DNA from: Holophagales bacterium
Lineage (GTDB): Bacteria; Acidobacteriota; Thermoanaerobaculia; Multivoradales; UBA5704
Direction of reading: 5' to 3'
Assembly (NCBI GenBank): GCA_031390755.1
Contig: JANMTS010000060.1
Span: forward strand, 700-64,699
DNA: 64,000 nt
The position numbers were made by a program, and so were the translations under genes. Numbering within the stretch: the stretch's first letter is position 1; every line of letters starts with the position of its first letter. Of this stretch, positions 21,272 through 47,785 are shown one piece after another. Under the pieces are notes generated by a model. The model saw only the letters and a list, made by a program, of their open reading frames with translations, searched no databases and had not been told where the DNA came from.

Positions 21272-21287
21272 TGGCATCTCGCTTGCT
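21272..21287 (+). promoter_or_regulatory. sigma-54 (-24/-12) promoter
   Basis: TGGCAT-CTCGC-TTGCT. GG at 21273-21274 and GC at 21285-21286 have the canonical 12-nt register. It lies 41 nt upstream of the first operon ATG (21328). Confidence 0.7.
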
Positions 21288-21327
21288 CAAGGAGGGATGC
21301 GAGCCTGAGCCATGAACCACTTCGACG

Positions 21328-22260
21328 ATGACCTTCCCCATGCCTGACCGGCGTTCGCATCACGCGTCGCTGGTCGGCCACGTGGTGGAGGATCTGACCT
21401 TCGAGCCCCTGGACGCGGGACGGCTGGCGGCCGAGATGACGGGCAGCATGACGACTACAGGCCGGCTCGCGCGGATCAAGGACGGCGGCTTCTTCGTCTT
21501 CGCCGACCTGGCAGCGGGGGACTACGGTCTCCGGCTGACCGGCGAGCGGCTCGAAGCCCGGGAGATCCCGGTCACCCTTCCGTTCGCCCCCCTGCGCCTG
21601 GCGTTTCCGGGTGACAACGAGCTGCTGGTGACGGTCGCCGCGGTCGACCCGGCGGAGCGCCGGATCACGTTCGAGCCGGCCCACCTGCCGCGGCGGATCG
21701 AGGCGGGGGCGGCGGTGCTGGCCGCGGGCCTGGAGACGACCCTCACCGCCGAGCTGGCGGCCGGCCCCGCGGTCGCCGCGCGGCTGGAGAGTGTCGGCGG
21801 CGTCGGCGGCATCGGCGGCATCGCGCCGGGAGCGCTGGTGCGCATCGTGCGCGAGCGCTCGATCCGGCTGCGGCCCGATCCCTATGCGGCCCTGCCCCCG
21901 GGGCTGACGCGCCTGGTGGGGCGGGTGACGCGAGCCGTGCCGGCCGGCCATCCGGTGGCCGGAGCCACGGTGCGCCTGCGACGGCTGGGCGAGACCGACG
22001 TGGAGATCCGGGACGTGGCCGGCGCCGCCATCGCCGTCCTTCCCTCCAGCCCGTCCGTCTCCAGGCCGCTGGGGACGGAGCGCGACGTCACCGCCCTCAC
22101 CAACGCCCGGGGCGACTATCACCTCTACTTCTCCGACGCCTTCTTCCCCGCCGCCGTGACGCTCGAGGCCAGCGCCCCGGGTCTGGCGACGGCGGTGCGC
22201 ACGGCCGATGCCGGCCGCGGCGAGCGGAGAAGGGTCGACTTCCAGATGGAGGGCTCCTGA
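21328..22260 (+). CDS. carboxypeptidase-regulatory-like (Ig/prealbumin-fold) domain protein
   Basis: 'GHVVEDLTFEPLDAGRL...TTTGRLARIKDGGFFVFADLAAGDYGLRL' and 'VGRVTRAVPAGHPVAGATVRL...TNARGDYHLYF' look like two CarboxypepD_reg-type beta-sandwiches. Confidence 0.5.
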   Translation: MTFPMPDRRSHHASLVGHVVEDLTFEPLDAGRLAAEMTGSMTTTGRLARIKDGGFFVFADLAAGDYGLRLTGERLEAREIPVTLPFAPLRLAFPGDNELLVTVAAVDPAERRITFEPAHLPRRIEAGAAVLAAGLETTLTAELAAGPAVAARLESVGGVGGIGGIAPGALVRIVRERSIRLRPDPYAALPPGLTRLVGRVTRAVPAGHPVAGATVRLRRLGETDVEIRDVAGAAIAVLPSSPSVSRPLGTERDVTALTNARGDYHLYFSDAFFPAAVTLEASAPGLATAVRTADAGRGERRRVDFQMEGS

Positions 22261-22296
22261 GACGGCATGCCGCCGGGGAGCCAGGAGGACATCGAG

Positions 22297-22527
22297 ATGC
22301 CCAAGGTCAAGAACAGCTCGTGGAGCCCGTGCCTCCTCGCCGTCGGCGAGCGGATCATCCCCATCCCGGCGCGCGGCATCGCCAAGATCACCGACGACGA
22401 GGCGGGGAGCCCCGAGGTGCAGCGGCAGATCGCCGACGGCTCGCTGATCGTCCTGCCGGAGACCGCCGCCGAAACCGCCCGCAGCGGCGGCAAGTCCACC
22501 GGAACCGCGACGACACCGCAGTCCTGA
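22297..22527 (+). CDS. small hypothetical protein (76 aa)
   Basis: AGGAGG (22282-22287) lies 9 nt before ATG 22297. MPKVKNSSWSPCLLAVGERIIPIPARGIAKITDDEAG... No family recognised. Confidence 0.45.
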   Translation: MPKVKNSSWSPCLLAVGERIIPIPARGIAKITDDEAGSPEVQRQIADGSLIVLPETAAETARSGGKSTGTATTPQS

Positions 22528-22545
22528 TGAAAGGAGCCTGAAGCC

Positions 22546-24219
22546 ATGCCTGAATATCTGTCTCCCGGAGTGTACGTCGAGGAGGTCTCCTCGGGGATCA
22601 AGCCCATCGAAGGGGTCGGAACCTCCACCGGCGCCTTCGTCGGCGGCGCCGTGAAAGGGCCGGTCGACAAGGCGGTCCTGGTCACCAACTTCACACAGTT
22701 CGTCGACACGTTCGGCAGCTTTCACCCCAACCACTACCTGGCCTACGCGGTGCGCCACTTCTTCCTCGAAGGGGGCACGCGTTGTTACGTCGTCCGCGCC
22801 TTCCACCCGACCGACATTCCCAAGCCTCTCCCGCCGGACTGGCCCTGGCCCTCGGGTGTCCTACCGGATTTCGCCTGGTCGAAGCTCAAAGAGAACAAAA
22901 CGGACACAACCAACAACAAGGAAGTCCTCCTCGTGGCGGCCAACAGCCCGGGAGCCTGGGGCAATGATCTGTCGATCAAGATCGAGAAGGCCTCGTTCGA
23001 TCCGCGCGACGCCACGGACGCGGAGATGCGCTTCAAGCTGACCGTCCTGGCAAAGCGACCGGGGGCTTCGGCGGAAGCAGTGGAGGTCTTCGACTCTCTT
23101 ACCTTGGCCGACTTCATCGGCAACACCAAGCTGCCCAACCCGAACCACGCCGAGATACGGATCAATGGCACGTCCCGCTACATCCGGGTCTCCGACCTGA
23201 CGGCCACCGACAAGCTCATGAAGCCCTTCTTCGAGCCCGAACCCACCCCGCTCAAAGAAGGCCTCGACGGCGGCGTCAAGGCCGACGGCCCACTCCTGGA
23301 GCTGGGCGACCTCACGGGAGACGAGGCGAAGCGCACCGGTCTTCATGCGTTCGACCCGGTCGACGACATCAACATCGTCGCCATCCCGGACTTGATGCAG
23401 CTCGACGCTGCTGGAGACCAAAGCGCTACGAACGCGCGCGCCGGCACGCTCGCCGGCCTCACCTACTGCCAGAACCGCAAGGACTGCTTCTTCGTCGCCG
23501 ACATGCCCAGGGGCAAGACGCCGCAGGAGGCGCTCGCCTACAAGCAGGCGCAGGCGCCGTTCAGCGGCAGCCCGTTCAACTCGTCCTTCGGCGCGCTCTA
23601 CTACCCGTGGATCTGGGTGGACGACCCGGTCACCGGCGGGCGCAAGCTCTTCCCGCCCTCGGGGGCCGTCGCCGGCTCCTACTCCGGCACCGACGTGCGG
23701 CGCGGCGTCCACAAGGCGCCCGCCGGCACCGAGGACGGCTACCTGAACGCCGCCCTCGACATCGAGCGCACCCTGACCAAGGGCGAGCACGACACGCTCA
23801 ACCCCAACGGCGTCAACGTCATCCGCAAGTTCCCCGAGGCGGGCATCGTCCTCTGGGGCGCCCGCACGCTGTCGGCCGACCCGGAGTGGAAGTACCTCAA
23901 CGTCCGGCGCCTCTTCCTGTTCCTCGAAGAGTCGATCTTCAAGGGCACCCAGTGGGTGGTCTTCGAGCCCAACGACCCCGTGCTGTGGAAGCGCATCGTG
24001 CGCAACATCAGCGCCTTCCTGCGGGTGCAGTGGAGCGAGGGCAAGCTGGTGGGCGCCAAGCCGGAGGAGGCGTTCTTCGTCAAGTGCGACGCGGAGACCA
24101 ATCCTCCGGAGTCGGTCGACCTGGGCCGCGTGATCACGGTCATCGGCGTCGCGCCCTCGAAACCCGCCGAGTTCGTCATTTTCCGCATCTCCCAGTTCCA
24201 GCCCGGGGCGGGCGACTGA
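22546..24219 (+). CDS. contractile tail sheath protein 1
   Basis: Classic N-terminus MPEYLSPGVYVEEVSSGIKPIEGVGTSTGAFVG. C-terminal 'GVNVIRKFPEAGIVLWGARTL...EAFFVKCD'. Confidence 0.95.
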   Translation: MPEYLSPGVYVEEVSSGIKPIEGVGTSTGAFVGGAVKGPVDKAVLVTNFTQFVDTFGSFHPNHYLAYAVRHFFLEGGTRCYVVRAFHPTDIPKPLPPDWPWPSGVLPDFAWSKLKENKTDTTNNKEVLLVAANSPGAWGNDLSIKIEKASFDPRDATDAEMRFKLTVLAKRPGASAEAVEVFDSLTLADFIGNTKLPNPNHAEIRINGTSRYIRVSDLTATDKLMKPFFEPEPTPLKEGLDGGVKADGPLLELGDLTGDEAKRTGLHAFDPVDDINIVAIPDLMQLDAAGDQSATNARAGTLAGLTYCQNRKDCFFVADMPRGKTPQEALAYKQAQAPFSGSPFNSSFGALYYPWIWVDDPVTGGRKLFPPSGAVAGSYSGTDVRRGVHKAPAGTEDGYLNAALDIERTLTKGEHDTLNPNGVNVIRKFPEAGIVLWGARTLSADPEWKYLNVRRLFLFLEESIFKGTQWVVFEPNDPVLWKRIVRNISAFLRVQWSEGKLVGAKPEEAFFVKCDAETNPPESVDLGRVITVIGVAPSKPAEFVIFRISQFQPGAGD

Positions 24220-24243
24220 GGCGAGCACAAGGAGAGACCCGCC

Positions 24244-24681
24244 ATGCCACGGAGAGCGACCGATCCCTATGCCTCGTTCAACTTCCTCCTGGAGATCGAC
24301 GGCATCGCCAAGGCCGGATTTTCGGAGGTCACCGGCCTCAACGCCGAGGCCAACATCATCGAGTACCGGGAGGGCGGCGACAAGGCCAACACCATGCGCA
24401 AGCTGCCGGGCCTCGAGAAGTACGGCAACGTGACGCTCAAGCGCGGCGTCAGCCAGGACCCCGAGCTGTTCACCTGGCACAAGACCGTGATCGACGGCGA
24501 CATCGTGCGCGACGAGGCGATGTCGATCGTGCTGCTCGACGAGAAGCGCCAGGAGGCGGCGCGCTGGAACCTGCTCCAGGCCTGGGCGGTGAAGTGGGTG
24601 GGGCCGGACCTCAAGGCCGGCGCCAACGAGATCGCCATCGAATCCCTCGAGCTCGCCCATGAGGGCGTGGAGCGCCAGTGA
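24244..24681 (+). CDS. tail tube protein 1 (T4 gp19-like)
   Basis: MPRRATDPYASFNFLLEIDGIAKAGFSEVTGL...YGNVTLKRGV...ESLELAHEG. Confidence 0.9.
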   Translation: MPRRATDPYASFNFLLEIDGIAKAGFSEVTGLNAEANIIEYREGGDKANTMRKLPGLEKYGNVTLKRGVSQDPELFTWHKTVIDGDIVRDEAMSIVLLDEKRQEAARWNLLQAWAVKWVGPDLKAGANEIAIESLELAHEGVERQ

Positions 24682-25061
24682 TGTTGCAGACCGAGTTCGA
24701 GGTCACGCTGCCCAAGGGGTACGTCGACAAGGACGGCAACCTGCACCGCACGGGGATCATGCGTCTCGCCAACGCGCGCGACGAGATCGCGCCGCTCCAG
24801 GACCCGCGGGTGCAGCGCAATCCGGCCTACCTGACGGTGATCCTGCTGTCGCGGGTGCTCATCAAGCTGGGCGAGGTGCGCGAGGTCACGCCGGCCACGA
24901 TCGAGGGGCTGTTCTCGGCCGACTTCGCCTATCTCCAGGATTTCTACGGCCGGATCAACGCCAACGGGCACAGCGCCGTGACGATCGAATGCCCGGAGTG
25001 CGAGGCGCGCTTCCAGGTCACGCAGGATCTCCTGGAAGGAGGGCCGGACGCGGGGGGGTAG
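24681..25061 (+). CDS. tail assembly chaperone-like protein (zinc-ribbon C-terminus)
   Basis: ATG 24681 overlaps the tube stop (TGATG). It sits immediately after the sheath-tube pair, as P2 gpE does. 'CPECEARF'. It ends at a G7 tract followed by TAG. Confidence 0.55.
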   Translation: MLQTEFEVTLPKGYVDKDGNLHRTGIMRLANARDEIAPLQDPRVQRNPAYLTVILLSRVLIKLGEVREVTPATIEGLFSADFAYLQDFYGRINANGHSAVTIECPECEARFQVTQDLLEGGPDAGG

Positions 25062-25228
25062 CTTGCTATCCCCTGGACCAGGCGGCCAGGGAGGTAGCGT
25101 ACATCGCCTACTACTTTCATTGGCCGCGCGAGGAGATCCTCGACCTGCCCCACCGTGAGCGGCGGCGATGGGTGGAGGAGATCGCGCGGATCAACCAGGA
25201 GATCAACGAGGCGGCCGAGCGGGCCTGA
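25058..25228 (+). CDS. -1-frame extension ORF lacking its own start codon
   Basis: Own reading of the -1 frame from 25058: VACYPLDQAAREVAYIAYYFHWPREEILDLPHRERRRWVEEIARINQEINEAAERA*. No ATG/GTG/TTG occurs in that frame before GTG 25172. Confidence 0.45.
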   Translation, partial: VACYPLDQAAREVAYIAYYFHWPREEILDLPHRERRRWVEEIARINQEINEAAERA

Positions 25229-25266
25229 CAGGCTTGATCGAGCCGCCGGAGAGGGAGACCCAGGCC

Positions 25267-26949
25267 ATGGAGGCGAGAGCCCCGGGAGCACAGATCCGCG
25301 AGGTCGAGCTGGCGCCGCCGGCCTTCCTCCAGCTCAGCGTGGCCGGGTTCGTCGGCCAGGCCGAGCGCGGACCGATGCACAGCCCTCAGCTGCTGACGAG
25401 CTGGGGGCAGTTCACCGACGTCTTCGGCGGCTTCACGGGGCGTTCGTTCCTGGCCTACGCCGTGTTCGGCTTCTTCGCCAACGGCGGCCGGCGCTGCTGG
25501 GTGGTACGCACGGCGCACTGGCAGTCGCAGACGGCGCGACTCGATCTCCTCGATCCCGCCGGGACCTCCCGGATCGCCGTCCATGCGCTCGATCCCGGCG
25601 GCTGGGGGAACGCGATCGAGGTGGACTGCCGCCCGGTCCCCGACAAACGGATTCCGGGCGGCTTCCGCCTGGCCTTCCGTTACCGTCCCGGAGGCCGGAC
25701 GGTGCGGGAGGAGATCTTCGACGACCTCTCCCCCGATCCGGAGCACAAGCGGTATTTCGTGCGGCTCGTCAACGGCGATCCTCCGGCCGAGAGCTATGTC
25801 GAGAAGGCCCGGCAGGGGTGCTCGACCCTGGTGCGGGTCGAGGCGCTCGGGGCCGGTTCGCCGGCGGTCGTCACAGGGATCGCGGGCGTCAATGGCGCGC
25901 CGCTCGCCAGGGGCGAGGACGGTCCGTGGCGCCTCACCGTGGCCCACTATGTGGGATACGAGGACGGCGTGCTCTTCCGGCCGCAGGGCCTGCCGAAGGG
26001 GACGCTGGGCGGGCTCGCCGCGTTCGAGCGCATCTCCGAGATCGGCACCGTGGCGATCCCCGACCTGATCCTCCCCGAGCTGATCCCGCCGGGCGACGCC
26101 GTTCCCACCCGGGGACCGGTCTTCGCCGGCGCCCCGGCCGGCAGCCTGGAGGGGATGCTCGAAGGGCAGCGCGAGATGCTGCGCCACTGCCGCCGCAGGG
26201 GCGAGCGGTTCGCCCTGCTCGACGCGCCGCGCGGCGCCGAGCCCGGGCGCGGGGTGCGCCCGGTCGAGGACTGGGCGGGCAAGCTTTCCGATCTTCCCGA
26301 GGCGCGCGACGGCGCGCTCTACCACCCCTGGCTCCGCCATCGCGCCGCGGACTTCGGCGGGCGCGACCTGCTGATCCCGCCGTGCGGCCACGTGGCCGGC
26401 ATCTACGCCCGCAGCGAGGAGCGGCGCGGCGTGGGCAAGGCGCCGGCCAACGAGATCCTCCAGGGCGCCGTGAGCCTGGAGCTGTGTCTCGACGACGCCC
26501 GCCAGGCGCTGGTCAATTCCCTGGGCGTGAACTGCCTGCGCGTCTTCCCCGGCCGCGGCCTGCGCGTCTGGGGCGCGCGCACCCTCAGCCGCGACCCGCA
26601 GTGGAGCTACGTCAACGTGCGCCGGGTGGCCCTGGCGATCGTCAAGCAGATCCTGGTCCGCCTGCGCTGGACGGCGTTCGAGCCCAACGGCCCCGGACTG
26701 TGGCGGGCGGTCACCGCGACGCTGACCCTCTTCCTGCTCCAGCTCCTGGAGAGCGGCGCCCTCGCCGGAGCCTCGGCGGCCGAGGCCTTCTTCGTCCAGT
26801 GCGACGAGGAGACGAACCCGCCCGAGCTCACCGGGCAGGGCCAGATGCTGGCGCGGATCGGCTTCGCGCCGGCCCGGCCCGCCGAGTTCGTGGTGGTCAC
26901 CCTCCGCCGGACCGCCGAATCGCTGGTGGTCACGGAGCAGGGGCTCTAG
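25267..26949 (+). CDS. contractile tail sheath protein 2 (paralog)
   Basis: Start MEARAPGAQIREV (ATG 25267, preceded by ggagaggga). 'GVNCLRVFPGRGLRVWGARTL...EAFFVQCD' parallels sheath 1. Confidence 0.9.
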   Translation: MEARAPGAQIREVELAPPAFLQLSVAGFVGQAERGPMHSPQLLTSWGQFTDVFGGFTGRSFLAYAVFGFFANGGRRCWVVRTAHWQSQTARLDLLDPAGTSRIAVHALDPGGWGNAIEVDCRPVPDKRIPGGFRLAFRYRPGGRTVREEIFDDLSPDPEHKRYFVRLVNGDPPAESYVEKARQGCSTLVRVEALGAGSPAVVTGIAGVNGAPLARGEDGPWRLTVAHYVGYEDGVLFRPQGLPKGTLGGLAAFERISEIGTVAIPDLILPELIPPGDAVPTRGPVFAGAPAGSLEGMLEGQREMLRHCRRRGERFALLDAPRGAEPGRGVRPVEDWAGKLSDLPEARDGALYHPWLRHRAADFGGRDLLIPPCGHVAGIYARSEERRGVGKAPANEILQGAVSLELCLDDARQALVNSLGVNCLRVFPGRGLRVWGARTLSRDPQWSYVNVRRVALAIVKQILVRLRWTAFEPNGPGLWRAVTATLTLFLLQLLESGALAGASAAEAFFVQCDEETNPPELTGQGQMLARIGFAPARPAEFVVVTLRRTAESLVVTEQGL

Positions 26950-26958
26950 GAGAGGACG

Positions 26959-27405
26959 ATGGCGCGCCGAAGCACCGATCCGTACGCGGGCTACCGCTTC
27001 CTCCTCCAGCTCGGGGTGCTGCCCGCGGCCGGCTTTGCCGAGTGCACCGGCCTCCAGGCCGAGACCAAGGTCTTGGACTACGTCGAGGGCGGGCGCAACG
27101 GCACGACCCTCAAGTTCCCGGAGGCCACCGGCTACTCCAACGTCGTGCTCAAGCGGGGGGTCGGCCTCTCGAACGAGCTTCTCTACTGGCAGCTCGACGC
27201 CGCGCACGGGCTCTTCGTTCTCAACCCCCGGCTGGTCGTCAACACCGCCATCGTGCTCCAGGACGAGCGCGGCCGGCCCGTCCGCTTCTGGCTGCTGAAG
27301 CGGGCCTTTCCGGTCAAGTGGACAGGACCGGACCTCAAGGCGGGGGCGAACGAGGTCGCCATCGAGTCGCTGGAGCTCGCCCATGAGGGGATCGTGCCGC
27401 TATGA
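26959..27405 (+). CDS. tail tube protein 2 (paralog)
   Basis: MARRSTDPYAGYRFLLQLGVLPAAGFAECTGLQAE...YSNVVLKRGV...ESLELAHEG. Confidence 0.9.
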   Translation: MARRSTDPYAGYRFLLQLGVLPAAGFAECTGLQAETKVLDYVEGGRNGTTLKFPEATGYSNVVLKRGVGLSNELLYWQLDAAHGLFVLNPRLVVNTAIVLQDERGRPVRFWLLKRAFPVKWTGPDLKAGANEVAIESLELAHEGIVPL

Positions 27406-27974
27406 GCGCCTCCTCGGCCCTGGGCGACGTCACCCGCACGCTCGAGGATCTGCTCACCCGCGAGCAGCGGCCCGCCGGGCTGTTCGAGGTCTCCCTGCGC
27501 TCGCCCGCCGACGAGACGGTCGAGCCGTCGATGAAGCCCAAGATCAACGTCTATCTCTTCCGGGTGGAGGAGAACGCCAACGCCAAGAACCGGCCCTGGC
27601 CGGTCACCGGGAGCGAATCGCGGCGCTATCCGCCGCTGGCGCTCGACCTGTTCTACGTGCTCACGCCCTACGCCGACCGGCTGGTGGACGAGCAGACGGT
27701 GCTCGGCGAAGCCATGCGCGTGCTGCACGAGAACACGGTCGTGGAGGGCGACGCCCTGCGCGGCTCCCTGCGCCACTCGGGCGAGGATCTCAAGATCGAC
27801 CTCGGCCGCTGCGACGTCGAGAGCCTCACCCGCATCTGGAACGCGTTCAATCAGCCGTACCGCCTGTCCGTCTGCTACGAGGTCCGGGCCGTGCTCGTGG
27901 ATGCCGTGCGCGAAATCCGCACGGCCCGCGCCGGGGAGACCGCGGAGGAATATGAGAGTCTCGACGATCGTTGA
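27402..27974 (+). CDS. DUF4255 (Afp16/Pvc16-like) tail terminator/cap protein
   Basis: ATGA overlap with tube 2. 'INVYLFRVEENANAKN...PPLALDLFYVLTPY' is the typical DUF4255 signature. Confidence 0.85.
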   Translation: MSASSALGDVTRTLEDLLTREQRPAGLFEVSLRSPADETVEPSMKPKINVYLFRVEENANAKNRPWPVTGSESRRYPPLALDLFYVLTPYADRLVDEQTVLGEAMRVLHENTVVEGDALRGSLRHSGEDLKIDLGRCDVESLTRIWNAFNQPYRLSVCYEVRAVLVDAVREIRTARAGETAEEYESLDDR

Positions 27975-32456: not shown

Positions 32457-32461
32457 GGGAG

Positions 32462-41712: not shown

Positions 41713-43388
41713 TGGCCAACCCGACCCCGACCGCGGAGAGCAATCTGCTCCGCCTGGAAAAGAACAACTATTTCCCAGGCAAGCTGCTGACCAGCCGCGA
41801 CTGCCAGGATGAGCAGGACTTCCACAACGAGAAGCGCCGCCTGCTCAGCCGGCTCACCCTCGGCCGCGGCGTGGTCCGCGGCCTCAAGACCAGCCTCGAC
41901 GCCGCGGCCGGCCCCCTGGGCATCCGCGTCACCCGCGGCATGGCCATCGACGCCTGGGGCCGGGAGATCGTCGTCGACGCCGACCAGAGCCGCAGCCTGA
42001 ACGTGCTGCTGCCTGAGCTCGCGGCAGGGACGTACACCCTGCGCCTGGCCTACGACCAGATGCTCCGCGAGCCCGTGCCCTCGCCCGATTCGACCTGCGA
42101 CGAGACCTGCCAGAACAACCGGATCCGCGAGATGTTTGTGCTCAAGCTCGGCACCGGCATCGTCGAGCCGCGGCCGGACACCTGGAGCACCACGGTCACC
42201 CTCGTCGAAACGCCGACCTGGAAGCTCGTCCGCAAGACGCCGCGATGGATCAGGACGGGGGAGACGGCCGACGTCTGGCTGGGCCTCCTCGGCCAGAACG
42301 GCCTTGCCGTGCCGGCCGGCACCACCGTCGACGTGACCGAAAAGCTCACCGGCCTGACGCCGGCCCAGGCCACCTTCAAGCTGACCCAGGACGACCGGAT
42401 CAAGACCTATTCCGTGAAGGCCGGCACTCCCGGCACCACGGCCACCATCACCGCCGCGGTCACCCCGGGGTTTCCCACCGTGGAGCTGACCAGCAGCCTG
42501 CGGATCATCGCCGGATCGGTCGCGGACCGCCTCGTCAAGGCGTTCTTCGAAGAGCAGGGGGAGTACCAGGATCCGCCCGCCAACCCGGATGTTCCCCTGG
42601 CCACCGTCGTCGTCGAAGGCTCCGGCGACAGCCGCCGGATCGCGAGCGTCACTCTCTTCCCGGGCCAGCAGTTCGTCTACGGCAACGACATCCTTTTCGA
42701 CGTCCTGACCCTCCTGGAGCAGCGGACCGGAGCCACCGGCCCCAAGGGCGATCCGGGAGCCCAGGGGAACCCTGGACCCAAGGGAGATCCGGGACCGCAG
42801 GGACCGAAGGGCGATCCGGGAGGCTCCGGCCCGGGGAACCAGGGACCTCCGGGACCGGTGGGGCCTCCGGGGCCTCGCGGCCCGGCCGGCGCTCAGGGGC
42901 CTGCGGGACCGGCGGGACCCGGGCGTGTCAACTTCGGCATCGAGGAGATCACCCTGACCGGCCAGCTCACGACCTACAAGGTCGCCTCCTCGGGATTCCT
43001 GCGCCCGAACTTCTGCGTCATGGTGGCGCCCAAGGTCCAGCCCAACCTGGCGACGCTCCCCCCCGACACCGTGCCCCTGTTCGTCTTCGGCGAGACCTTC
43101 CCCACCGACCCCAAGCCCCTCTTTGTCCGGGCGTTCATCCCCGTCGACTCCTCGGGAGCGTTCTACATCCAGATCTATTCGGAGACCGTGCAGCCGAAGA
43201 AGGTCCGCGTCTCCTGGATCGCCGTCGAAGGCCAGTTCGTCGGCCCCGGCCCCCTGCCGCCGGAGCTGGCCAACCTCGGCCCCGCCGCCGCGCCCACCGC
43301 ACCGGCTGCACCGGCCGCGAAGCCCAGGACCGCCAAGAAGACCGCCAAGGCCGGGACGCCCCGCAAGCCGCGGAGCCGGAAGGCCTGA
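41712..43388 (+). CDS. tail fibre-like protein with collagen-like G-X-Y tract
   Basis: ATG 41712 overlaps the upstream TGA. About 65 residues of G-X-Y ([28 protein letters not shown]...) are encoded at 42729-42923. Lys/Arg-rich C-terminal tail. Confidence 0.65.
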
Positions 43389-43403: not shown

Positions 43404-46400
43404 ATGGCGCGGCATGCTCCAGCGAAGTCCGGTCCGACGAAGCCCGGACCTTCCCAGCCGGGACCCCGCCCGGCTCCGGGCAAGCGCGCCCAGCATCCGG
43501 TCCTCGCCCTCCAGCAGGCCGCCGGCAACCGCGCCGTCGGCCGCCTGATCGAGGCCCGCAAGGAGGAGCGCAAATCCCGGCTCGATCCCCTGGAGCCTGA
43601 AGTCTCTCCCGAAGCCACGCCCAGGATCGCGGCCCGCGAGGCCGAAGCGGAAGCCCCGGCGAAGCAGGCCGCTCCGGTGAAGGAGCCGGCCGGGGCCGCT
43701 GTGGAACCTCCCGCTCCGGCAGCCACGCTGGCAGCCGCGCCGGCAAACGCTCCGGTGGTTGCTCCGGTGGCGGCGGCACCGGAGCCGGCCGCGGTCGAGG
43801 CGGCGCCGGCCGTGTCTGCGGAATCGGGAGGATCGGCCGCACCGGCAGTCCCGGAGGCTTCGGCAGAGCCGGCGCTGGTAGCGCCCGAAATTGCTCCCAA
43901 AACTGCGCCCGAGGCGGCATCCGCAGCCCCGCCACCTACTGGCGAGGGAGCCCCCCCTGCCCCAGCGCCGGAAGCCGGGGCCGCCGCACCGGCTCCGGAG
44001 CCTGCCGGTGAGCAGGCTCCGACCTCTCCGGAGCAGGATCCGGCTTTTCAGGCTGTCGTGGCCCGCATCGAAGGCGTCGCTCGCCAGAAGAAAAGCCACG
44101 TCCCCGCCCGCGCCGCCGCCGCGAAAGCCCAGGCCGCCGCCGTCGATCCGCCCAACGCCGCTTCCGCCCATGCGGCCGGCGCCCAGGTCGGCAAGATGGA
44201 CGCCCAGCAGCCGCGCCCCTTCGACCGGGCCGCCTTCAAGGCCGCCCTGCTCGCGAAGGTCGCGTCCGTCACGCCTCAGACCCTCGAAGCGGCCGACGAA
44301 TTCAAGTCGAGCGGCAAGGCCGGCGACATCAAGACCGCGGTCACCGCCCGGGTGGCCGCAGGCAAGGACCAGGCCCAGGGTGCCATCCAGAAGGCCGCCA
44401 CCGAGACCCCCTCCCCGGGCGGCTTCCATCCCCGGCCCGCCTCCGCCCTGGCTCCCCCCGATCCCGGCCCGCCGCCCCCGGACCTCGCCGCCGGCCAGGC
44501 GGCTCCCAAGCCCAAATCCGAAGCCGAGATCGAAGCCCCTCTCGCCGCCTCCAGCCAGCGGCTCGACGAGCCGATGACCGCCGCGGGCGTCACCGAGGCC
44601 CAGCTCGAACGCTCCAACGAGCCTGCCTTCCAGGACGCCCTCCAGGCGAAGCGCGAGGCCCAGGACAACGCCAGTCAGGCTCCGGCCGCCTACCGGGCCG
44701 CTGAAAAGGGCACCCTCGCCGTGGCCGCCGGACAGGCGCGGACCTCGGCCCGGGACCGGACGGCGGCCATGCACGGAGCCCGCGGCACGCTCCTCGCCCA
44801 GGTCGCCGGCCGGCAGCTCGGAGCCAAGGCCGCCGACGAGCAGCGCCGCGCCGAGGTCGCGCGCCGCATCGAGGGGATGTACCAGACCACCAGAGGCGAG
44901 GTGGAGGCCCGTCTCTCTCTTCTCGACCGGCAGGTGCAGGCGATCTTCGACCGCGGAGCCGGCGCCGCCCGCCGCGCCTTCGAAGACCACGTCGCGCACC
45001 GCATGGCGGCCTACAAGGAGAAACGCTACAAAGGGGTCAAGGGCTTGCTGCGCTGGGGAAAGGACAAGCTCTTCGGCATGCCCTCCGAGGTCAACGCCTT
45101 CTACGTCGAGGGACGCGACCTCTATGTCCGGACGATGGACGGAACCCTCGACGAGATCGCGACCACCGTCGAGTCCGGTCTCCTCCAGGCCAAGGCGCTC
45201 ATCGCCGTCGGCCGGCAGCAGACCGAGACCTACGTCGCGGGGCTCCCCGGCGACCTCCAGCAGGTCGGCCGGGAAGCGGCCGACGGCATCCAGGCCCGGT
45301 TCGCGGCGCTGGAGCAGAGCGTCGCCGACAAGCAGGGCCAGCTCGTCGAGGATCTCGCCCGCAAGTACGCCGAAAACCTGCAGCAGGTCGACGCCCGCGT
45401 CACGGAGATGAAGGAGGCCGACCGCGGCCTCGCGGACAAGGCCGGCGAGGCTCTCGGCGGCGTCCTGCGCACTCTCGCCGAGCTCAAGGAGATGCTGTTC
45501 TCGGTCCTGGCGCGGGCGGCCGGTGTCATCGGCACCATCCTCCAGGATCCCATCGGCTTCCTGGGCCACCTGGTGGACGGCGTCCGGCTCGGCCTCTCGG
45601 GCTTCGTCTCCAACCTCGGCGAGCACCTCAAGAAAGGCGTCCTCGAATGGCTCTTCGGCGCCCTGGGAGAAGCCGGCCTCCAGATTCCCGAGAGCTTCGA
45701 CCTCAAGGGCATCCTGGGCCTCATCCTCCAGGTGCTCGGCCTCACCTACGTCAAGATTCGGGCACGCGCGGTGGCCATCGTCGGCGAGCCCGTCGTGAGC
45801 GCCCTGGAGAAGACCGCCGAGGTCTTCAAGATCCTCGTCACCGAGGGGCCGGCAGGCCTGTGGCGCTTCATCCAGGACAAGCTCGCCGAGATCAAGGAGA
45901 CCGTGCTGGAAGGCCTCAAGTCCTTCCTCATGGAAAGCGTCATCAAGGCCGGCATCACCTGGCTCCTGAGCCTGCTCAATCCGGTCGCGGCGTTCATCAA
46001 GGCCTGCAAGGCGATCTACGACATCGTGATGTTCTTCGTCACGCGCGCCGCGCAGGTCATGGCCCTGGTCTCCTCGATCCTCGACTCGATCGCAGCCATC
46101 GCCTCCGGCGCCATCGCCGAGGCTGCGGCGGCGGTGGAGAAAGCGCTAGCCAAGACCATCCCGGTCGTCATCGGCTTCCTCGCGAGCCTGCTCGGCCTGG
46201 GAGGAATCTCCGACAAGATCCGCGAGGTCATCCAGGCCATCCAGGCTCCCATCAACAAGGCCGTCGACGCGGTCATCCACCAGGCGGTCAAGACCGCCAC
46301 GGCCGTGGGCGGCCTCTTCAGCGGCGGAAAGAAGAAGGAGGAAAAGCCTGTCCCGGAGACCGGGGATCTGGAGCACGACGCGAAGGTGGCAGCGGGGTTG

Positions 46401-46964
46401 GCGGCGATCGACGTAGAGGAAGCACATTACCCCGAGACCGGTATCACTCAGGATCAAGCTGAAAGGGTCGCCGCAAAGGTGCAAGCCGGGCACCCCGTCT
46501 TTAAGTCGCTCGCAGTGGTAGATAGTGGCGAGAGCTGGGATTACGATTACGTCGCTAGTCCCGGGCGGCGCAAACGCGGCGCAAGAAAAAGTAAACAGCC
46601 TGGTAGAACGACAGCTCTCTCAGGTAGACCAGCAGAAGAGGCGGTATCGAACGCCACGGGTGTTCCATTGAATGTTGGCACTGGCAGAGATACAATCCCC
46701 GGAAGTGGGCCAGGCAGGGTAAGGTTTCCAGACCTCAAGATTTTTGGCCTCGAAGGTTCAATTATTCAGCGCGGTTCCATTATCGAGGTCAAAGATGTAA
46801 AAAGACTCCAGGGTCGTCGGCAAATCAGAGATCTGATCGCTTACGCACGTTCCAAAAGCCTTGTGATTGAAATTTACAGCGACGCCTCCATACCCTCCAG
46901 AGGAGTGATTGCCGACGCCGTTGCGACTGGCTTGGTAGTGCTCAAAGGGATACCCAAGCGATGA
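43404..46964 (+). CDS. putative eCIS payload/polymorphic-toxin-like protein (disordered N-terminus, long helical core, C-terminal PD-(D/E)xK-like module)
   Basis: N-terminal 'VLALQQAAGNRAVGRLI' motif. About 200 aa of Ala/Pro-rich low complexity. Hydrophobic helical core (GFLGHLVDGVRLGLSGF...LQVLGLTYVKIRA...). C-terminal 'RFPDLKIFGLEGSIIQRGSIIEVKDVK'. Confidence 0.6.
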   Translation: MARHAPAKSGPTKPGPSQPGPRPAPGKRAQHPVLALQQAAGNRAVGRLIEARKEERKSRLDPLEPEVSPEATPRIAAREAEAEAPAKQAAPVKEPAGAAVEPPAPAATLAAAPANAPVVAPVAAAPEPAAVEAAPAVSAESGGSAAPAVPEASAEPALVAPEIAPKTAPEAASAAPPPTGEGAPPAPAPEAGAAAPAPEPAGEQAPTSPEQDPAFQAVVARIEGVARQKKSHVPARAAAAKAQAAAVDPPNAASAHAAGAQVGKMDAQQPRPFDRAAFKAALLAKVASVTPQTLEAADEFKSSGKAGDIKTAVTARVAAGKDQAQGAIQKAATETPSPGGFHPRPASALAPPDPGPPPPDLAAGQAAPKPKSEAEIEAPLAASSQRLDEPMTAAGVTEAQLERSNEPAFQDALQAKREAQDNASQAPAAYRAAEKGTLAVAAGQARTSARDRTAAMHGARGTLLAQVAGRQLGAKAADEQRRAEVARRIEGMYQTTRGEVEARLSLLDRQVQAIFDRGAGAARRAFEDHVAHRMAAYKEKRYKGVKGLLRWGKDKLFGMPSEVNAFYVEGRDLYVRTMDGTLDEIATTVESGLLQAKALIAVGRQQTETYVAGLPGDLQQVGREAADGIQARFAALEQSVADKQGQLVEDLARKYAENLQQVDARVTEMKEADRGLADKAGEALGGVLRTLAELKEMLFSVLARAAGVIGTILQDPIGFLGHLVDGVRLGLSGFVSNLGEHLKKGVLEWLFGALGEAGLQIPESFDLKGILGLILQVLGLTYVKIRARAVAIVGEPVVSALEKTAEVFKILVTEGPAGLWRFIQDKLAEIKETVLEGLKSFLMESVIKAGITWLLSLLNPVAAFIKACKAIYDIVMFFVTRAAQVMALVSSILDSIAAIASGAIAEAAAAVEKALAKTIPVVIGFLASLLGLGGISDKIREVIQAIQAPINKAVDAVIHQAVKTATAVGGLFSGGKKKEEKPVPETGDLEHDAKVAAGLAAIDVEEAHYPETGITQDQAERVAAKVQAGHPVFKSLAVVDSGESWDYDYVASPGRRKRGARKSKQPGRTTALSGRPAEEAVSNATGVPLNVGTGRDTIPGSGPGRVRFPDLKIFGLEGSIIQRGSIIEVKDVKRLQGRRQIRDLIAYARSKSLVIEIYSDASIPSRGVIADAVATGLVVLKGIPKR

Positions 46965-47785
46965 ACAGAAAGTCCGTGGTCTCCATCGATTTGGAAGTTT
47001 GCCTCGGGAGGTGCCTGTTGGACGAGGAGCTAATCGGCAAGGTACAAGAGATTCTTCTCCGGTATGCTGTGGGATGGGTTCCCGTGATGCGCCTCTGGCC
47101 TCCAGAGCACGGCGACAAGAACCTTGATCTTGGCGCCGACAGATCTCTTTTCGATCTGACAAAAAGAGAGATCGAGGAAGCAGCGGCTAATACGGGATCA
47201 AGACTGACCGGGCTCGTAGAGTTTCGTGGAGCAACACAAGGCCTGGCAGTGATTATGAGTGTCGACGAGAAGACCTTCTTTCGAGTGGGTGACAATTGGC
47301 TCTGGGGCAACCGTATTGCTCTTCAGATTCGGAAGCAAAAGATTGGAAGCATCAATTCGGTTAAGTGGGCGGGATCGGTGTTCGAGGAACTCTGCGCGGC
47401 AGTATCGCCTTGGTATGGGCGAGCAAGTTCTACTCAAGAGTACGAGGCGAAGAACATCGACCGCAGCGACGGCGTTCGTGCCGTTGGGGTCAACGTTGCT
47501 CGTGCTCTTCCGGGCCTCTATTGGCTTAATTTCTTCGGGAAACCTTATGTTGATCACATCGGTCGAGAACAAATCTTAAGCGCACCGGCGGAAACAGTTC
47601 GAGCAATCGACGATGGCATCTTGCTTCGCCTCATGGAGTATCCAGGGACGTGGGATTCAGCCGAGTATCGGCTCGGCGAGGAAAAAGTTCTGGAGCATTT
47701 GAGTCCGCGATACTTCTTCTCGAAAACAAATCCAGCCCGCATTCATAGTGCACCGTCTTTTGATCTTGTTGGGTATTGTGGGTGA
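46961..47785 (+). CDS. putative cognate immunity protein (DUF3396/Imm52-like by recollection)
   Basis: ATGA overlap with the toxin stop. Same low-GC patch. 274 aa. 'LPGLYWLNFFGKPYVDHIGREQIL...IDDGILLRL' resembles the C-terminal motif of type VI immunity family proteins as I remember it. Confidence 0.45.
   Translation: MNRKSVVSIDLEVCLGRCLLDEELIGKVQEILLRYAVGWVPVMRLWPPEHGDKNLDLGADRSLFDLTKREIEEAAANTGSRLTGLVEFRGATQGLAVIMSVDEKTFFRVGDNWLWGNRIALQIRKQKIGSINSVKWAGSVFEELCAAVSPWYGRASSTQEYEAKNIDRSDGVRAVGVNVARALPGLYWLNFFGKPYVDHIGREQILSAPAETVRAIDDGILLRLMEYPGTWDSAEYRLGEEKVLEHLSPRYFFSKTNPARIHSAPSFDLVGYCG

What the first reader, a model, noticed from the sequence alone, without database searches (positions are those of the whole stretch)
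21272..47785. Complete roughly 26.5-kb contractile injection system operon with a P2-like backbone interrupted by a second sheath-tube-cap-ATPase module
About twenty-two consecutive + strand reading frames, many joined by 1-4-nt start/stop overlaps, encode the following, in order:
- a CarboxypepD_reg-like protein and a small ORF;
- sheath 1, tube 1 and a chaperone-like ORF;
- sheath 2, tube 2, a DUF4255 cap and an AAA+ ATPase;
- a protein at the tape-measure position, the LysM tube initiator and the gpD hub;
- gpV/VgrG-like spike, PAAR, gp25 and two J-like baseplate proteins;
- a gpI-like/NHL protein, a collagen-like fibre, the payload and the immunity gene.

I see no capsid, portal, terminase, integrase, lysis or T6SS membrane-complex (TssJLM) genes. 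That places the locus in the eCIS/tailocin class rather than prophage or T6SS.

If the block 25267-30177 is removed, the order sheath-tube-chaperone-(tape measure)-LysM-gpD is exactly P2/R-pyocin-like. The Afp15/Afp16-type module plus the second sheath/tube pair therefore look like an insertion between chaperone and tape measure. This hybrid architecture, combined with a toxin-immunity end and sigma-54 control, is not one I can match to a characterised system.
Basis: partly seen in the sequence, partly recalled or inferred. Interest (0 to 1): 0.8.

Follow-up and report, generated by a model that had tools for sequence, protein, structure and literature searches.

The report
Soil-type contractile injection system with toxin
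This is a complete phage-tail-like injection machine of an already catalogued but never studied lineage, armed with a swappable DNA-cutting toxin and its antidote; its odd gene order is normal for that lineage, and it seems to keep the ribosomal frameshift that phages use for their tail assembly chaperone.

Summary
Window 21272-47785 is one + strand block of 23 genes encoding every core part of an extracellular contractile injection system (eCIS). It sits behind a sigma-54 promoter and its activator gene, and no capsid, terminase, integrase or T6SS membrane genes occur anywhere in the 64 kb.

The "P2 backbone plus inserted module" reading is only partly right.
- All seven relatives I sampled (52-82% sheath identity; Pyrinomonadaceae and unnamed metagenome contigs) have the same order: sheath1, tube1, chaperone, sheath2, tube2, cap, ATPase.
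- Sheath2 is an old paralog that co-diverged with sheath1.
- A second tube gene after the chaperone is standard across the wider clade (Streptomyces, Chloroflexi, Bacillota, Methanoperedens).
- Both sheaths are far closer to Streptomyces CIS sheaths than to pyocin/P2.
- The features match dbeCIS subtype IIa.

The last two genes are a polymorphic toxin, built from a conserved ~1000-aa helical carrier and a Tox-REase-7 nuclease, plus its immunity gene. A syntenic relative carries AHH/Imm11 instead.

Most novel by-product: the "chaperone-like ORF" is a true phage tail-assembly-chaperone homolog. It is followed in the -1 frame by a start-less DUF6760 ORF, a G-run slippery site and a hairpin. This arrangement is conserved in 84 loci and two myophages, so I infer a programmed frameshift.

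The parts
19737..21026 (+). sigma-54 enhancer-binding activator (Sigma54_activat + AAA_lid_14 + HTH_8)
   Evidence: Pfam 1.9e-62. An activator gene sits in the same position in L001, L004 and L081-L085, but not in L084.
21147..21228 (.). inverted pair GGGGTTTTCCCC (21147-21158) / GGGGGAAAACCCC (21216-21228); candidate activator-binding sites
   Evidence: Coordinates. Similar motifs occur upstream of the promoter in L081 and L082. Their function is inferred.
21272..21287 (+). sigma-54 -24/-12 promoter-like element TGGCATCTCGCTTGCT
   Evidence: One mismatch to the consensus; one of two such matches in the window and the only one upstream of the operon on the + strand. Equivalent elements lie upstream of the operon in L081 (perfect match), L082 and L001.
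21328..22260 (+). CarboxypepD_reg-like protein, the lineage-specific first gene; role unknown
   Evidence: Pfam 1.6e-10. Conserved at 41-82% identity in L001, L081 and L082, and present in L083 and L085.
22267..22527 (+). small conserved ORF (86 aa), function unknown
   Evidence: tblastn 39-79% identity in L001, L081 and L082. No family hit.
22546..24219 (+). sheath 1 (main sheath, Cis2/Afp2-like)
   Evidence: Phage_sheath_1 and Phage_sheath_1C. PDB 8bky E 2.8e-121.
24244..24681 (+). tube 1 (Cis1/Afp1-like)
   Evidence: Phage_T4_gp19 2.3e-45.
24681..25061 (+). tail assembly chaperone homolog (126 aa, C-terminal CxxC zinc ribbon)
   Evidence: phrog_508 'tail assembly chaperone' 1.5e-6; 22 of 22 homologs hit it, best 3e-10. 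50-96% identical across 84 loci.
25052..25098 (+). putative -1 recoding signal: slippery G_GGG_GGG (25052-25058), stop TAG (25059-25061), 6-nt spacer, hairpin arms 25065-25076 and 25086-25098
   Evidence: The native fold is more stable than all 300 synonymous recodings in the window (z -3.2).
25058..25228 (+). DUF6760 ORF in the -1 frame with no start codon (junction codon GTA); proposed frameshift extension of the chaperone
   Evidence: Pfam DUF6760 4.2e-16. Always in the -1 frame in 84 loci. Homologous segments lie in unannotated chaperone-to-tape-measure gaps of phages PG1 and BCD7.
25267..26949 (+). sheath 2, an old divergent paralog (33% identical to sheath 1)
26959..27405 (+). tube 2 (Afp5/Cis5 position; 49% identical to tube 1)
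   Evidence: Phage_T4_gp19 1e-31; identity. A second tube gene after the chaperone is present in nearly all loci.
27402..27974 (+). tube/sheath terminator cap (Afp16/Cis16)
   Evidence: Pvc16_N 2.8e-41.
27952..30177 (+). AAA+ ATPase (Afp15/Cis15); start could also be 27901
   Evidence: WHD 1.8e-46 and AAA 3.2e-31; start codons.
30174..31796 (+). tape measure protein. The N-terminal ~100 aa and C-terminal ~60 aa are conserved; the variable middle is built from in-frame direct and inverted DNA repeats.
   Evidence: No family hit. Conserved ends shared with L081 and L082. Repeats.
31815..32456 (+). tube initiator with LysM (Afp7/Cis7; gpU-like)
   Evidence: CIS_tube 3e-28, Phage_P2_GpU 6e-8, LysM 2e-6.
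32462..33532 (+). baseplate hub (gp27/gpD-like half of Afp8)
   Evidence: Phage_GPD 1.9e-8; NCBIfam VgrG_rel 1.5e-49.
33529..34188 (+). spike (gp5/gpV-like half of Afp8)
   Evidence: Phage_base_V 4.6e-31.
34195..34479 (+). PAAR spike tip (Afp10)
   Evidence: PAAR_motif 4.7e-23.
34489..34881 (+). gp25-like baseplate wedge / sheath initiator (Afp9)
   Evidence: GPW_gp25 5.6e-25.
34881..37805 (+). Baseplate_J protein 1 (Afp11 copy 1, 974 aa)
   Evidence: Frame set by GC3. Baseplate_J 2.7e-18; TIGR02243 2.8e-71.
37820..39547 (+). Baseplate_J protein 2 (Afp11 copy 2, 575 aa); lacks a ~125-150-aa internal segment present in relatives
   Evidence: Baseplate_J 2.2e-17; phrog_6 1e-24; internal deletion.
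39544..41712 (+). Cis12/Afp12-like baseplate protein with an NHL-type N-terminal part
   Evidence: Tail_P2_I 4.8e-14. CIS12_fam 7.9e-64 (below cutoff) and TIGR02242 1.9e-32.
41712..43388 (+). Cis13-like tail fibre: baseplate-binding N-terminus, collagen-like shaft (aa ~340-405), C-terminal knob
   Evidence: CIS13_fam N-terminus 3e-30; Collagen 1.4e-5; tail-fibre PHROGs.
43404..46964 (+). payload. N-terminal leader helix (aa 32-58, motif LQQAAGNRAV), disordered linker, conserved helical carrier (aa ~200-1000) with hydrophobic helices at 861-939, and a C-terminal Tox-REase-7 nuclease (aa ~1060-1186, 51% GC).
46961..47785 (+). cognate immunity protein (274 aa, 53% GC)
   Evidence: A 49%-identical homolog lies 6 nt downstream of an RHS toxin whose C-terminus is 63% identical to the payload C-terminus. 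Replaced by Imm11 in the syntenic L086.

Best explanation
The locus is a complete chromosomal contractile injection system of eCIS lineage II, with subtype IIa features. It belongs to an uncharacterised sub-lineage common in soil metagenomes (Pyrinomonadaceae and others).

Proposed working; only the gene content is shown here, the steps are inferred from characterised systems.
1. The adjacent enhancer-binding protein activates the sigma-54 promoter at 21272-21287 and drives a 23-gene operon.
2. The baseplate forms from gpD hub, gpV spike, PAAR, gp25, two J-type proteins and Cis12.
3. The LysM initiator and tube2 start the tube. Tube1 polymerises along the tape measure protein, helped by a phage-type assembly chaperone and its -1 frameshift fusion to DUF6760.
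4. Sheath1 builds the contractile sheath. Its old paralog sheath2 is either a specialised, probably baseplate-proximal, layer or a co-polymer.
5. The Pvc16-type cap terminates assembly.
6. The AAA+ ATPase loads the payload through its conserved N-terminal leader.
7. Collagen-like Cis13 fibres bind the target. Contraction then delivers a carrier protein with membrane-inserting helices and a C-terminal Tox-REase-7 nuclease.
8. The downstream gene protects the producer and its kin, so the likely target is other bacteria.
For: - All eight eCIS backbone components are present (criteria from PMC6899500).
- Seven related loci show the same order.
- Both sheaths are closest to solved Streptomyces CIS sheaths.
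- The sheath2 clade mirrors the sheath1 clade.
- The flanks are chromosomal and syntenic with L082/L086, with no phage genes.
- The sigma-54 element is conserved in three relatives.
- The payload carrier region has 30+ homologs carrying AHH, WHH, Colicin-DNase, Ntox15 or Endonuclea_NS_2 C-termini.
- The syntenic relative L086 is 78% identical up to aa 1078, then carries AHH + Imm11.
- The C-terminal 127 aa is Tox-REase-7. 25 of 29 homologs match, and they sit on RHS, PAAR or PT-HINT carriers.
- The immunity homolog follows an RHS toxin that has the same C-terminus.
- GC drops from 0.71 to 0.51-0.53 over exactly the toxin and immunity segment.
- The 58-aa leader is shared with an otherwise unrelated payload in L087.
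- Roles of the N-terminal loading sequence, the ATPase and the tape measure protein come from AlgoCIS experiments (bioRxiv 10.64898/2026.05.27.728243).
- Chaperone and frameshift evidence.
Against: - No expression, particle or activity data exist.
- The release route is unknown: the operon has no lysis gene, and the closest solved relatives (Streptomyces CIS) act inside the producer cell.
- The roles of sheath2, the CarboxypepD_reg protein and the 86-aa ORF are guesses.
- The Tox-REase-7 match of the window sequence itself is below Pfam's cut-off (23.6 vs 25 bits). It rests on its homologs.
- Subtype IIa is assigned from published gene-content criteria, not from placement in the dbeCIS tree.
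- The payload lacks the DUF4157 domain that many eCIS cargo proteins carry.
Confidence: 0.85

Rival explanations
1. One reading: a P2/R-pyocin-like tailocin backbone into which a foreign Afp15/Afp16 plus second sheath/tube module was inserted between the chaperone and the tape measure gene.
For: With 25267-30177 removed, the order sheath, tube, chaperone, tape measure, gpU-like, gpD does resemble P2. The chaperone is a true phage chaperone homolog. Relative to single-sheath relatives, cap and ATPase do sit in a different place.
Against: The block is present in all 7 relatives sampled. Tube2 after the chaperone is universal in the wider clade. Cap and ATPase are present in every relative, only elsewhere. 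Sheath2 co-diverged with sheath1. Sheath1 scores 1e-121 against the Streptomyces CIS sheath and 5e-10 against the pyocin sheath.
Confidence: 0.07
2. The machine is not released. It fires inside or from the producer cell, cytoplasmic or membrane-anchored like the Streptomyces CIS or the cyanobacterial thylakoid CIS, for example in stress-induced cell death or contact-dependent killing.
For: The nearest solved sheaths are from Streptomyces CIS, which are cytoplasmic (PMC12237407 abstract). The operon has no lysis cassette. The payload architecture resembles the Tme/Sle1 effectors of intracellular Streptomyces systems.
Against: A Cis13-type fibre with a collagen shaft and a distal knob, and no hydrophobic helix in Cis12 or Cis13, points to binding of external targets. 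The polymorphic nuclease with a dedicated immunity gene, shared with RHS toxins, is the signature of inter-bacterial antagonism.
Confidence: 0.25
3. A decayed prophage tail region or ordinary R-type tailocin.
For: All structural genes have phage homologs. The chaperone with a -1 extension and a tape measure gene are phage traits.
Against: There are no head, packaging, integration or lysis genes in 64 kb. The Pvc16_N cap, AAA+ ATPase and cargo toxin are eCIS hallmarks absent from R-tailocins (PMC6899500). The chromosomal position is the same in a relative.
Confidence: 0.03

Closest known systems
dbeCIS lineage II, subtype IIa eCIS loci (Chen et al. 2019, PMC6899500)
   Same: All eight backbone components are present. 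It also has two Afp11 (Baseplate_J) genes, Afp8 split into gp27-like and gp5-like ORFs, PAAR, divergent Afp12/13, and a tape measure protein unrecognisable by Afp14 profiles.
   Different: It has a second, deeply diverged sheath paralog between the chaperone and tube2. Cap and ATPase lie downstream of tube2 instead of upstream of the sheath. A CarboxypepD_reg gene comes first, and control is by sigma-54 with an enhancer-binding protein. Placement in the dbeCIS tree was not tested.
Streptomyces CIS (CIS-Sc / SLP; PDB 8bky, 8bl4)
   Same: Closest solved sheath: E 1e-121, with 42-44% identity at locus level. It shares the sheath, tube, 126-aa chaperone, DUF6760 cassette with the same GGGGGAA junction.
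   Different: In the Streptomyces loci sampled here I detected one sheath and a single Baseplate_J-type gene. No Cis13 homolog was detected, but most of those loci end near Afp11/12, so its presence could not be judged. ATPase lies upstream, and DUF6760 has a GTG start. Chen et al. give subtype IId a single Afp8 ORF. Those systems act in the cytoplasm.
Afp / PVC (lineage Ia eCIS)
   Same: Several sheath paralogs (Afp2/3/4) and two tube paralogs (Afp1/5), a cap, an ATPase, a 3'-end payload and an N-terminal cargo signal.
   Different: Only distant sequence similarity (sheath E 1e-35 to 1e-46) and a different gene order. I did not check Afp/PVC for a chaperone/DUF6760 cassette. Their payloads target insects and have no immunity gene.
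Tme / Sle1-type tape-measure-related CIS effectors (PMC11126660, PMC13277306) and DUF4157-linker-toxin eCIS cargo (Geller 2021, PMC8213781)
   Same: A large protein with a disordered N-terminus, long coiled coils, a hydrophobic helical hairpin region and an exchangeable C-terminal enzymatic domain, sometimes followed by an immunity gene. Homologs of the carrier region lie just upstream of the sheath gene, on the opposite strand in Streptomyces loci L047 and L050 and on the same strand in the Streptosporangiaceae locus L069. The opposite-strand placement is like sle1.
   Different: The window protein and locus lack DUF4157. Sequence homology to Sle1 or Tme themselves could not be tested. [quoted passage not shown]
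Phage tail assembly chaperones with conserved -1 frameshift (lambda G/GT, P2 E/E+E'; from my own knowledge of Xu et al. 2004 and Christie et al. 2002, not checked here)
   Same: A chaperone homolog sits right after the tube gene, followed by a ~55-codon -1-frame extension without its own start, a slippery run just before the stop, and a downstream hairpin. The same cassette occurs in myophages BCD7 and PG1.
   Different: It is found in a non-viral injection system. In this lineage sheath2, tube2, cap and ATPase separate it from the tape measure gene. The slippery motif is a G-run (GGGGGAA or GGGGGGG), which is canonical X_XXY_YYZ only in the window's own sub-lineage. The fusion product has not been observed.

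Membership tests
eCIS superfamily (Chen 2019 core backbone) | Afp1/5 tube, Afp2/3/4 sheath, Afp7 LysM initiator, Afp8 spike, Afp9 gp25, Afp11 Baseplate_J, Afp15 AAA+ and Afp16 cap all present in one locus | tested here: met
   Pfam hits above cut-off for all eight. Criteria quoted from PMC6899500.
eCIS superfamily | No head, packaging or integration genes and no T6SS membrane complex | tested here: met
   Pfam scan of the likely flanking genes, chosen by length and GC3, across the 64 kb. The flanks are syntenic with a relative.
eCIS superfamily | Particles are released and act extracellularly | not testable with these tools
   Needs EM or proteomics of supernatant. No lysis gene was seen.
dbeCIS subtype IIa | Two afp11 copies; afp8 split into gp27 and gp5 ORFs; afp10 PAAR present; divergent afp12/afp13 present | tested here: met
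   against the text of PMC6899500.
dbeCIS subtype IIa | Phylogenetic placement with subtype IIa reference loci | not tested
P2 / R-type pyocin-like tailocin | Sheath and tube most similar to P2/pyocin; no Afp15 ATPase, Afp16 cap or cargo toxin | tested here: not met
   Pyocin sheath scores E 5e-10, against 1e-121 for the CIS sheath. Cap, ATPase and cargo are present.
Type VI secretion system | TssJLM membrane complex, TssBC sheath pair, ClpV recycling | tested here: not met
   No such Pfam families in any gene of the locus or in the flanking genes scanned.
Polymorphic toxin system (Zhang et al. 2012 sense) | Conserved N-terminal carrier, variable C-terminal toxin domain, immunity gene immediately downstream that switches together with the toxin | tested here: met
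   GC drop.
Tox-REase-7 nuclease toxins (PF15649) | Match to the family profile above the curated cut-off | tested here: inconclusive
   The window domain scores 23.6 bits against a 25-bit cut-off (E 6e-5). 25 of 29 homologs match, best 4.5e-10. A D...E-x-K motif is visible (FPD...EVK). Activity was not tested.
Tme / Sle1-type CIS effectors | Coiled-coil plus transmembrane hairpin plus variable C-terminal domain; DUF4157 in the protein or a neighbour; homology to Sle1/Tme | tested here: inconclusive
   The architecture is met. DUF4157 is absent from the window but present in homologs. Homology to Sle1/Tme could not be tested. Foldseek gave no significant hit.
Phage tail assembly chaperone with programmed -1 frameshift | Homology to phage tail assembly chaperones | tested here: met
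   phrog_508 hit in 22 of 22 homologs, best 3e-10. Weak Pfam Phage_TAC_7 match in 7 of 22.
Phage tail assembly chaperone with programmed -1 frameshift | Overlapping -1 ORF without its own start, a slippery site in the overlap, and a downstream structure | tested here: met
   The -1 frame holds in 84 of 84 loci, and 23 lack a canonical start. G_GGG_GGG precedes the stop in the window. The hairpin is more stable than at least 95% of synonymous recodings in 30 of 39 loci. Covariation is weak.
Phage tail assembly chaperone with programmed -1 frameshift | The frameshifted fusion protein is actually made | not testable with these tools
   Needs mass spectrometry or a reporter assay.

The most novel reading that the evidence does not exclude
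Lineage II contractile injection systems, including the studied Streptomyces CIS, retain the phage tail-assembly-chaperone recoding cassette. The conserved 126-aa gene after the tube gene is a G/E-type chaperone. DUF6760 is not an independent gene but its -1 frameshift extension, the counterpart of lambda GT or P2 E+E'. It would be made by slippage on the conserved G-run (window 25052-25058) just before the stop, stimulated by a hairpin 6-7 nt downstream. That would make DUF6760 a mis-annotated family, and it would give CIS tube assembly and length control a phage-like chaperone step that nobody has included in models or in heterologous expression constructs.
Probability: 0.65. Interest if true: 0.6.

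Novelty: new variant of a known kind. Interest (0 to 1): 0.45.

Why it matters
For the finding as given, the locus adds an uncharacterised, soil-abundant eCIS sub-lineage. It has two sheath paralogs, sigma-54 control and a clearly antibacterial polymorphic nuclease/immunity cargo. The cargo shows that one toxin-immunity cassette moves between RHS toxins and eCIS cargo carriers, and it points to a short N-terminal leader as the loading tag. That is useful for people engineering eCIS, but it is not a new kind of system.

The by-product matters more. If the chaperone-DUF6760 frameshift is real, a recoding event known from tailed phages also operates in non-viral injection systems across bacteria and archaea. 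It would assign a function to an uncharacterised Pfam family. It would also identify a component that may be needed for correct tube assembly when these systems are expressed heterologously.

Tried and rejected
- The exact-sequence look-up of sheath1 found no contig on record. Cluster look-ups gave no taxon names.
- The first-pass ORFs 34973-37564 and 39549-43388 were rejected as wrong-frame or merged after the GC3 frame plot. A candidate ORF at 20998-21240 was dropped because its translation looks like a wrong-frame product and it has no homolog.
- I first suspected that the tape-measure-position ORF was non-coding or carried a MITE insertion, because of its 61-66-nt inverted repeats. I kept it as coding for four reasons. 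The frame stays open over 540 codons. The repeat spacings (192, 519 and 30 nt) are multiples of three. The N- and C-termini are conserved in L081 and L082. The intergene length matches that in L081.
- The AlphaFold model of the payload (pLDDT 65.6) gave no significant Foldseek hit in the PDB; the best was E 0.08.
- PDB sequence searches for the 126-aa protein and DUF6760 found nothing.
- tblastn of the 126-aa protein against phage genomes found nothing. Only the profile search (PHROGs) showed the chaperone relationship.
- RNAalifold did not recover the group-A hairpin on its own, and covariation within groups is weak because the sequence is nearly invariant. The hairpin claim therefore rests on the synonymous-recoding control and on the different stem solutions in two clades.
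- There are no Rfam families or tRNAs in the window. The terminator scan after the immunity gene was at chance level.
- Literature searches for DUF6760, for sigma-54 with CIS, and for a tail assembly chaperone or frameshift in CIS returned nothing relevant.

Full report
**What is there.** The window is about 70% GC, so mechanical ORF lists are full of shadow frames. A GC3 frame plot and start-codon scan resolve window 21328-47785 into 23 consecutive + strand genes. Pfam, NCBIfam and PHROG searches identify them, in order:
- a CarboxypepD_reg-like protein and an 86-aa ORF
- sheath1, tube1 and a 126-aa protein
- sheath2, tube2, a Pvc16_N cap and a WHD+AAA ATPase
- a 540-aa ORF at the tape-measure position
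- a CIS_tube/LysM initiator, gpD hub, gpV spike, PAAR and gp25
- two Baseplate_J proteins
- a Tail_P2_I/NHL (Cis12-like) protein and a Cis13-like collagen fibre
- a 1186-aa payload and a 274-aa protein

Two ORFs in the raw list (34973..37564 and 39549..43388) are wrong-frame or merged. Many junctions overlap by 1-4 nt.

A sigma-54 -24/-12 element lies 41 nt before the first ATG and downstream of a Sigma54_activat gene. It is one of two one-mismatch matches in the window and the only one upstream of the operon. Equivalent elements, plus a GGGGTTTTCCCC/GGGGAAAACCCC inverted motif, occur in relatives.

The likely genes in the rest of the 64 kb are ordinary chromosomal genes. There are no capsid, terminase, integrase, lysis or T6SS membrane genes, no tRNA and no Rfam hit.

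**Is the architecture a hybrid?** Sheath1 has thousands of homologs. I fetched contexts for homologs at 82, 71, 63, 60, 56 and 52% identity. I also mapped all window proteins onto 82 loci by tblastn.

Every locus of the window's sub-lineage has the same arrangement. These are L001 (Pyrinomonadaceae), L081/L087, L082/L086, L083, L084 and L085. The order is: CarboxypepD_reg-like protein (no Pfam hit on record for the L084 counterpart), small ORF, sheath1, tube1, 126-aa protein, (DUF6760), sheath2, tube2, cap, ATPase. A sigma-54 activator gene sits upstream in all of them except L084, which carries a Trans_reg_C/AAA_16 regulator on the opposite strand. The block 25267-30177 is therefore fixed in the lineage, not variably present.

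The wider clade covers about 60 Streptomyces and other actinobacterial loci, plus Chloroflexi, Bacillota, Nitrospiraceae and Methanoperedens. Its order is ATPase, cap, sheath, tube, 126-aa protein, tube2, (tape measure), LysM initiator, gpD, gpV, gp25, J. This shows three things:
- Tube2 after the 126-aa gene is canonical. It occupies the Afp5/Cis5 tube-adaptor position (cites SlpT2 as the Afp5 homolog).
- Cap and ATPase are core genes that occupy a different place in this lineage.
- The only added gene is sheath2.

A neighbour-joining tree places sheath2 of the four loci in a separate deep clade whose internal topology mirrors that of their sheath1 genes. Sheath1 and sheath2 are 33% identical over their full length, and tube1 and tube2 are 49% identical. 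Both sheaths hit the solved Streptomyces CIS sheaths best (8bky: 2.8e-121 and 6.3e-87). PVC/Afp sheaths score 1e-35 to 1e-46 and the pyocin sheath only 5e-10 and 4e-9.

The "P2 backbone interrupted by an Afp-type module" reading is therefore not supported. The P2 resemblance is the general resemblance of all contractile tails.

Chen et al. 2019 describe subtype-specific gene content. Two afp11 copies occur in IIa and IIc. A split afp8 occurs in IIa, IIb and IIc. PAAR is absent only from IIb. Divergent afp12/13 occur in IIa and IIb. The window meets the IIa combination. I found no paper on a characterised member of this sub-lineage, or on sigma-54 control of a CIS.

**The tape measure gene.** The ORF at 30174-31796 has no family hit. 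Its first ~100 and last ~60 residues are conserved in L081 and L082, and the distance from the ATPase gene to the initiator gene is the same as in L081.

Its middle third is unusual DNA:
- two 166-nt direct repeats, 92% identical
- two 135-nt repeats
- four copies of a 61-nt element in alternating orientation
- two REP-like palindromes (CCCCTCTCCCGG...CCGGGAGAGGGG) forming 66-nt outer inverted repeats

All spacings are multiples of three and the frame stays open. I therefore read it as a coding, repeat-built, length-variable middle section. The closest relative has similar palindromes at the same place, and its contig breaks there.

**The payload end.** The payload starts with a ~58-aa leader containing LALQQAAGNRAV. 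The otherwise unrelated 1331-aa payload of L087 shares this leader at 67% identity. Variants of the motif head other cargo and DUF4157 proteins of this lineage.

Residues ~200-1000 are conserved at 40-78% identity in 30+ proteins. Their C-termini carry AHH, WHH/Colicin-DNase, Ntox15 or Endonuclea_NS_2 domains, and some of them begin with DUF4157.

AlphaFold with that alignment predicts a leader helix, a disordered linker, very long helices (407-714, pLDDT >90 in part) and a helical bundle with hydrophobic helices at 861-939. Foldseek found nothing significant. This matches the verbal description of Tme/Sle1-type tape-measure-related CIS effectors, and of the "DUF4157, long linker, toxin" cargo of Geller et al.. 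I could not test homology to those proteins.

Several results identify the C-terminus as a mobile toxin cassette:
- L086, from the same sample as L082 and with the same downstream chromosomal genes, has the same payload at 78% identity up to residue 1078. It then carries an AHH domain followed by Imm11.
- In the window, GC falls from 0.71 to 0.51-0.53 exactly over the last ~127 codons and the next gene.
- The C-terminal 127 aa has 121 homologs, nearly all at the extreme C-terminus of proteins 110-2044 aa long.
- 25 of 29 of these match Tox-REase-7, on RHS, PAAR, PT-HINT or TcdB-type carriers.
- The closest homolog of the 274-aa protein (49% identity) lies 6 nt after a 3524-aa RHS toxin whose last 132 residues are 63% identical to the payload's.

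The toxin-immunity reading is therefore well supported and points to bacterial targets. Polymorphic toxins on PVC-type systems and eCIS toxin-immunity pairs are already described, so this is a good example rather than a new principle.

**The chaperone and a probable frameshift.** The 126-aa protein is the most conserved protein of the whole clade, at 50-96% identity across phyla. All 22 diverse homologs tested hit PHROG 508 "tail assembly chaperone" (best 3e-10; the window protein 1.5e-6), and 7 weakly hit Pfam Phage_TAC_7, the P2 gpE family.

Directly overlapping its stop codon, always in the -1 frame, lies the DUF6760 ORF.

In 84 loci the junction codon is GTG in 59 (nearly all Streptomyces-like), ATA in 15, GTA in 5, CTG in 3 and ATG in 2. 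The window has GTA and no canonical start within 12 codons. The peptide is nevertheless conserved from the junction onward.

The nucleotides before the stop are nearly invariant from low-GC Bacillota to high-GC Streptomyces. The motif is CTGGGGGAA, which uses the A-ending Glu codon GAA even in the high-GC Streptomyces loci. In the window's sub-lineage it is G_GGG_GGG or G_GGG_GGA, a canonical slippery heptamer. In low-GC loci the -1 frame is open for only 3-12 codons upstream, so any shift must occur on the G-run.

A hairpin starts 6-7 nt after the G-run. Its stems are GCTACC.../...GGTAGC in one group of loci and GTACGCGA/TCGCGTAC in the other. The 57 nt after the junction fold more stably than at least 95% of synonymous recodings in 30 of 39 loci (median z -2.06). 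The signal is weakest where an ATG or GTG start exists. Covariation within each group is weak because the sequence hardly varies.

tblastn of DUF6760 against phage genomes gives two weak hits (E 0.02 and 0.2). Both fall in unannotated gaps in the -1 frame. One lies between the "tail assembly protein" and "tape measure protein" genes of Pseudomonas phage PG1. The other lies between a chaperone-like gene and a large downstream gene of Bacillus phage BCD7, whose chaperone ends CTG GGG GAG TAA.

Neither protein appears in solved CIS structures, as expected for assembly factors. No paper in the library mentions DUF6760 or a CIS chaperone frameshift.

I infer a programmed -1 frameshift that produces a chaperone-DUF6760 fusion, analogous to lambda G/GT and P2 E/E+E'. 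That comparison rests on my own knowledge of the phage literature. Non-AUG termination-reinitiation is the alternative.

**Verdict.** The finding is a real, complete CIS of a known superfamily. It belongs to an uncharacterised sub-lineage with a conserved two-sheath arrangement, sigma-54 control and an antibacterial polymorphic nuclease cargo. The hybrid-insertion interpretation fails. Novelty is at the level of a new variant of a known kind. The conserved chaperone recoding cassette is the part most worth following up.

Noticed in passing
window 24681-25228 (slippery run 25052-25058, hairpin 25065-25098); also L001-L085, L091 3172-3623, L092 2722-3662: The 126-aa gene is a phage tail assembly chaperone homolog. 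DUF6760 follows it in the -1 frame without a start codon, after a conserved G-run and before a conserved hairpin. The same cassette occurs in 84 CIS loci and in myophages PG1 and BCD7, where the extension is unannotated. This is probably a programmed -1 frameshift.
   Followed up: yes
window 30476-31492 (inside the tape measure gene 30174-31796): The middle of the tape measure ORF is built from in-frame 166-nt and 135-nt direct repeats, four copies of a 61-nt element in alternating orientation, and two REP-like palindromes forming 66-nt outer inverted repeats. The closest relative (L082) has similar palindromes there, and its contig ends in them. This may be a way of varying tape measure length, or a tolerated repeat-element insertion.
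   Followed up: partly
window 46581-47785 versus L086 13100-14047: GC drops to 0.51-0.53 over the toxin domain and the immunity gene. The syntenic relative has AHH + Imm11 at the same place, so the cassette was exchanged recently.
   Followed up: yes
window 43404-43580 (payload aa 1-58); L087 10001-10180; L001 18279-; L083 18573- and 20600-; L084 19386-: An N-terminal motif of the form L-x-L-Q-x3-G-N-x-A/Y-V heads otherwise unrelated cargo proteins and DUF4157 (eCIS_core) proteins of this lineage. It is a candidate system-specific loading tag.
   Followed up: partly
window 47994-49646 (- strand): A 550-aa AAA_16 + PDDEXK_9 protein lies between the immunity gene and the alpha/beta hydrolase gene. 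In the syntenic relative L086 the hydrolase follows the immunity gene directly, so this gene looks inserted. It could be a defence or mobile gene.
   Followed up: no
window 37820-39547: The second Baseplate_J protein is 575 aa, against 723 and 761 aa in L086 and L087. An internal segment of about 125-150 aa is missing in frame.
   Followed up: partly
window 21288-21327 versus L081 8584-8883, L082 8532-8783 and L083 8195-8554: Relatives carry an extra 83-119-aa gene between the sigma-54 promoter and the CarboxypepD_reg gene. The window has no trace of it (tblastn).
   Followed up: partly
L001 18279-21614; L083 18573-21689; L084 17909-21593; L085 18210-18980: In the more distant members of the lineage the cargo region lies between the ATPase and the tape measure gene instead of at the 3' end. 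It holds a DUF4157 protein, a CxxCxxCC protein and a large 1300-1560-aa protein. The cargo position is therefore variable within one lineage.
   Followed up: partly
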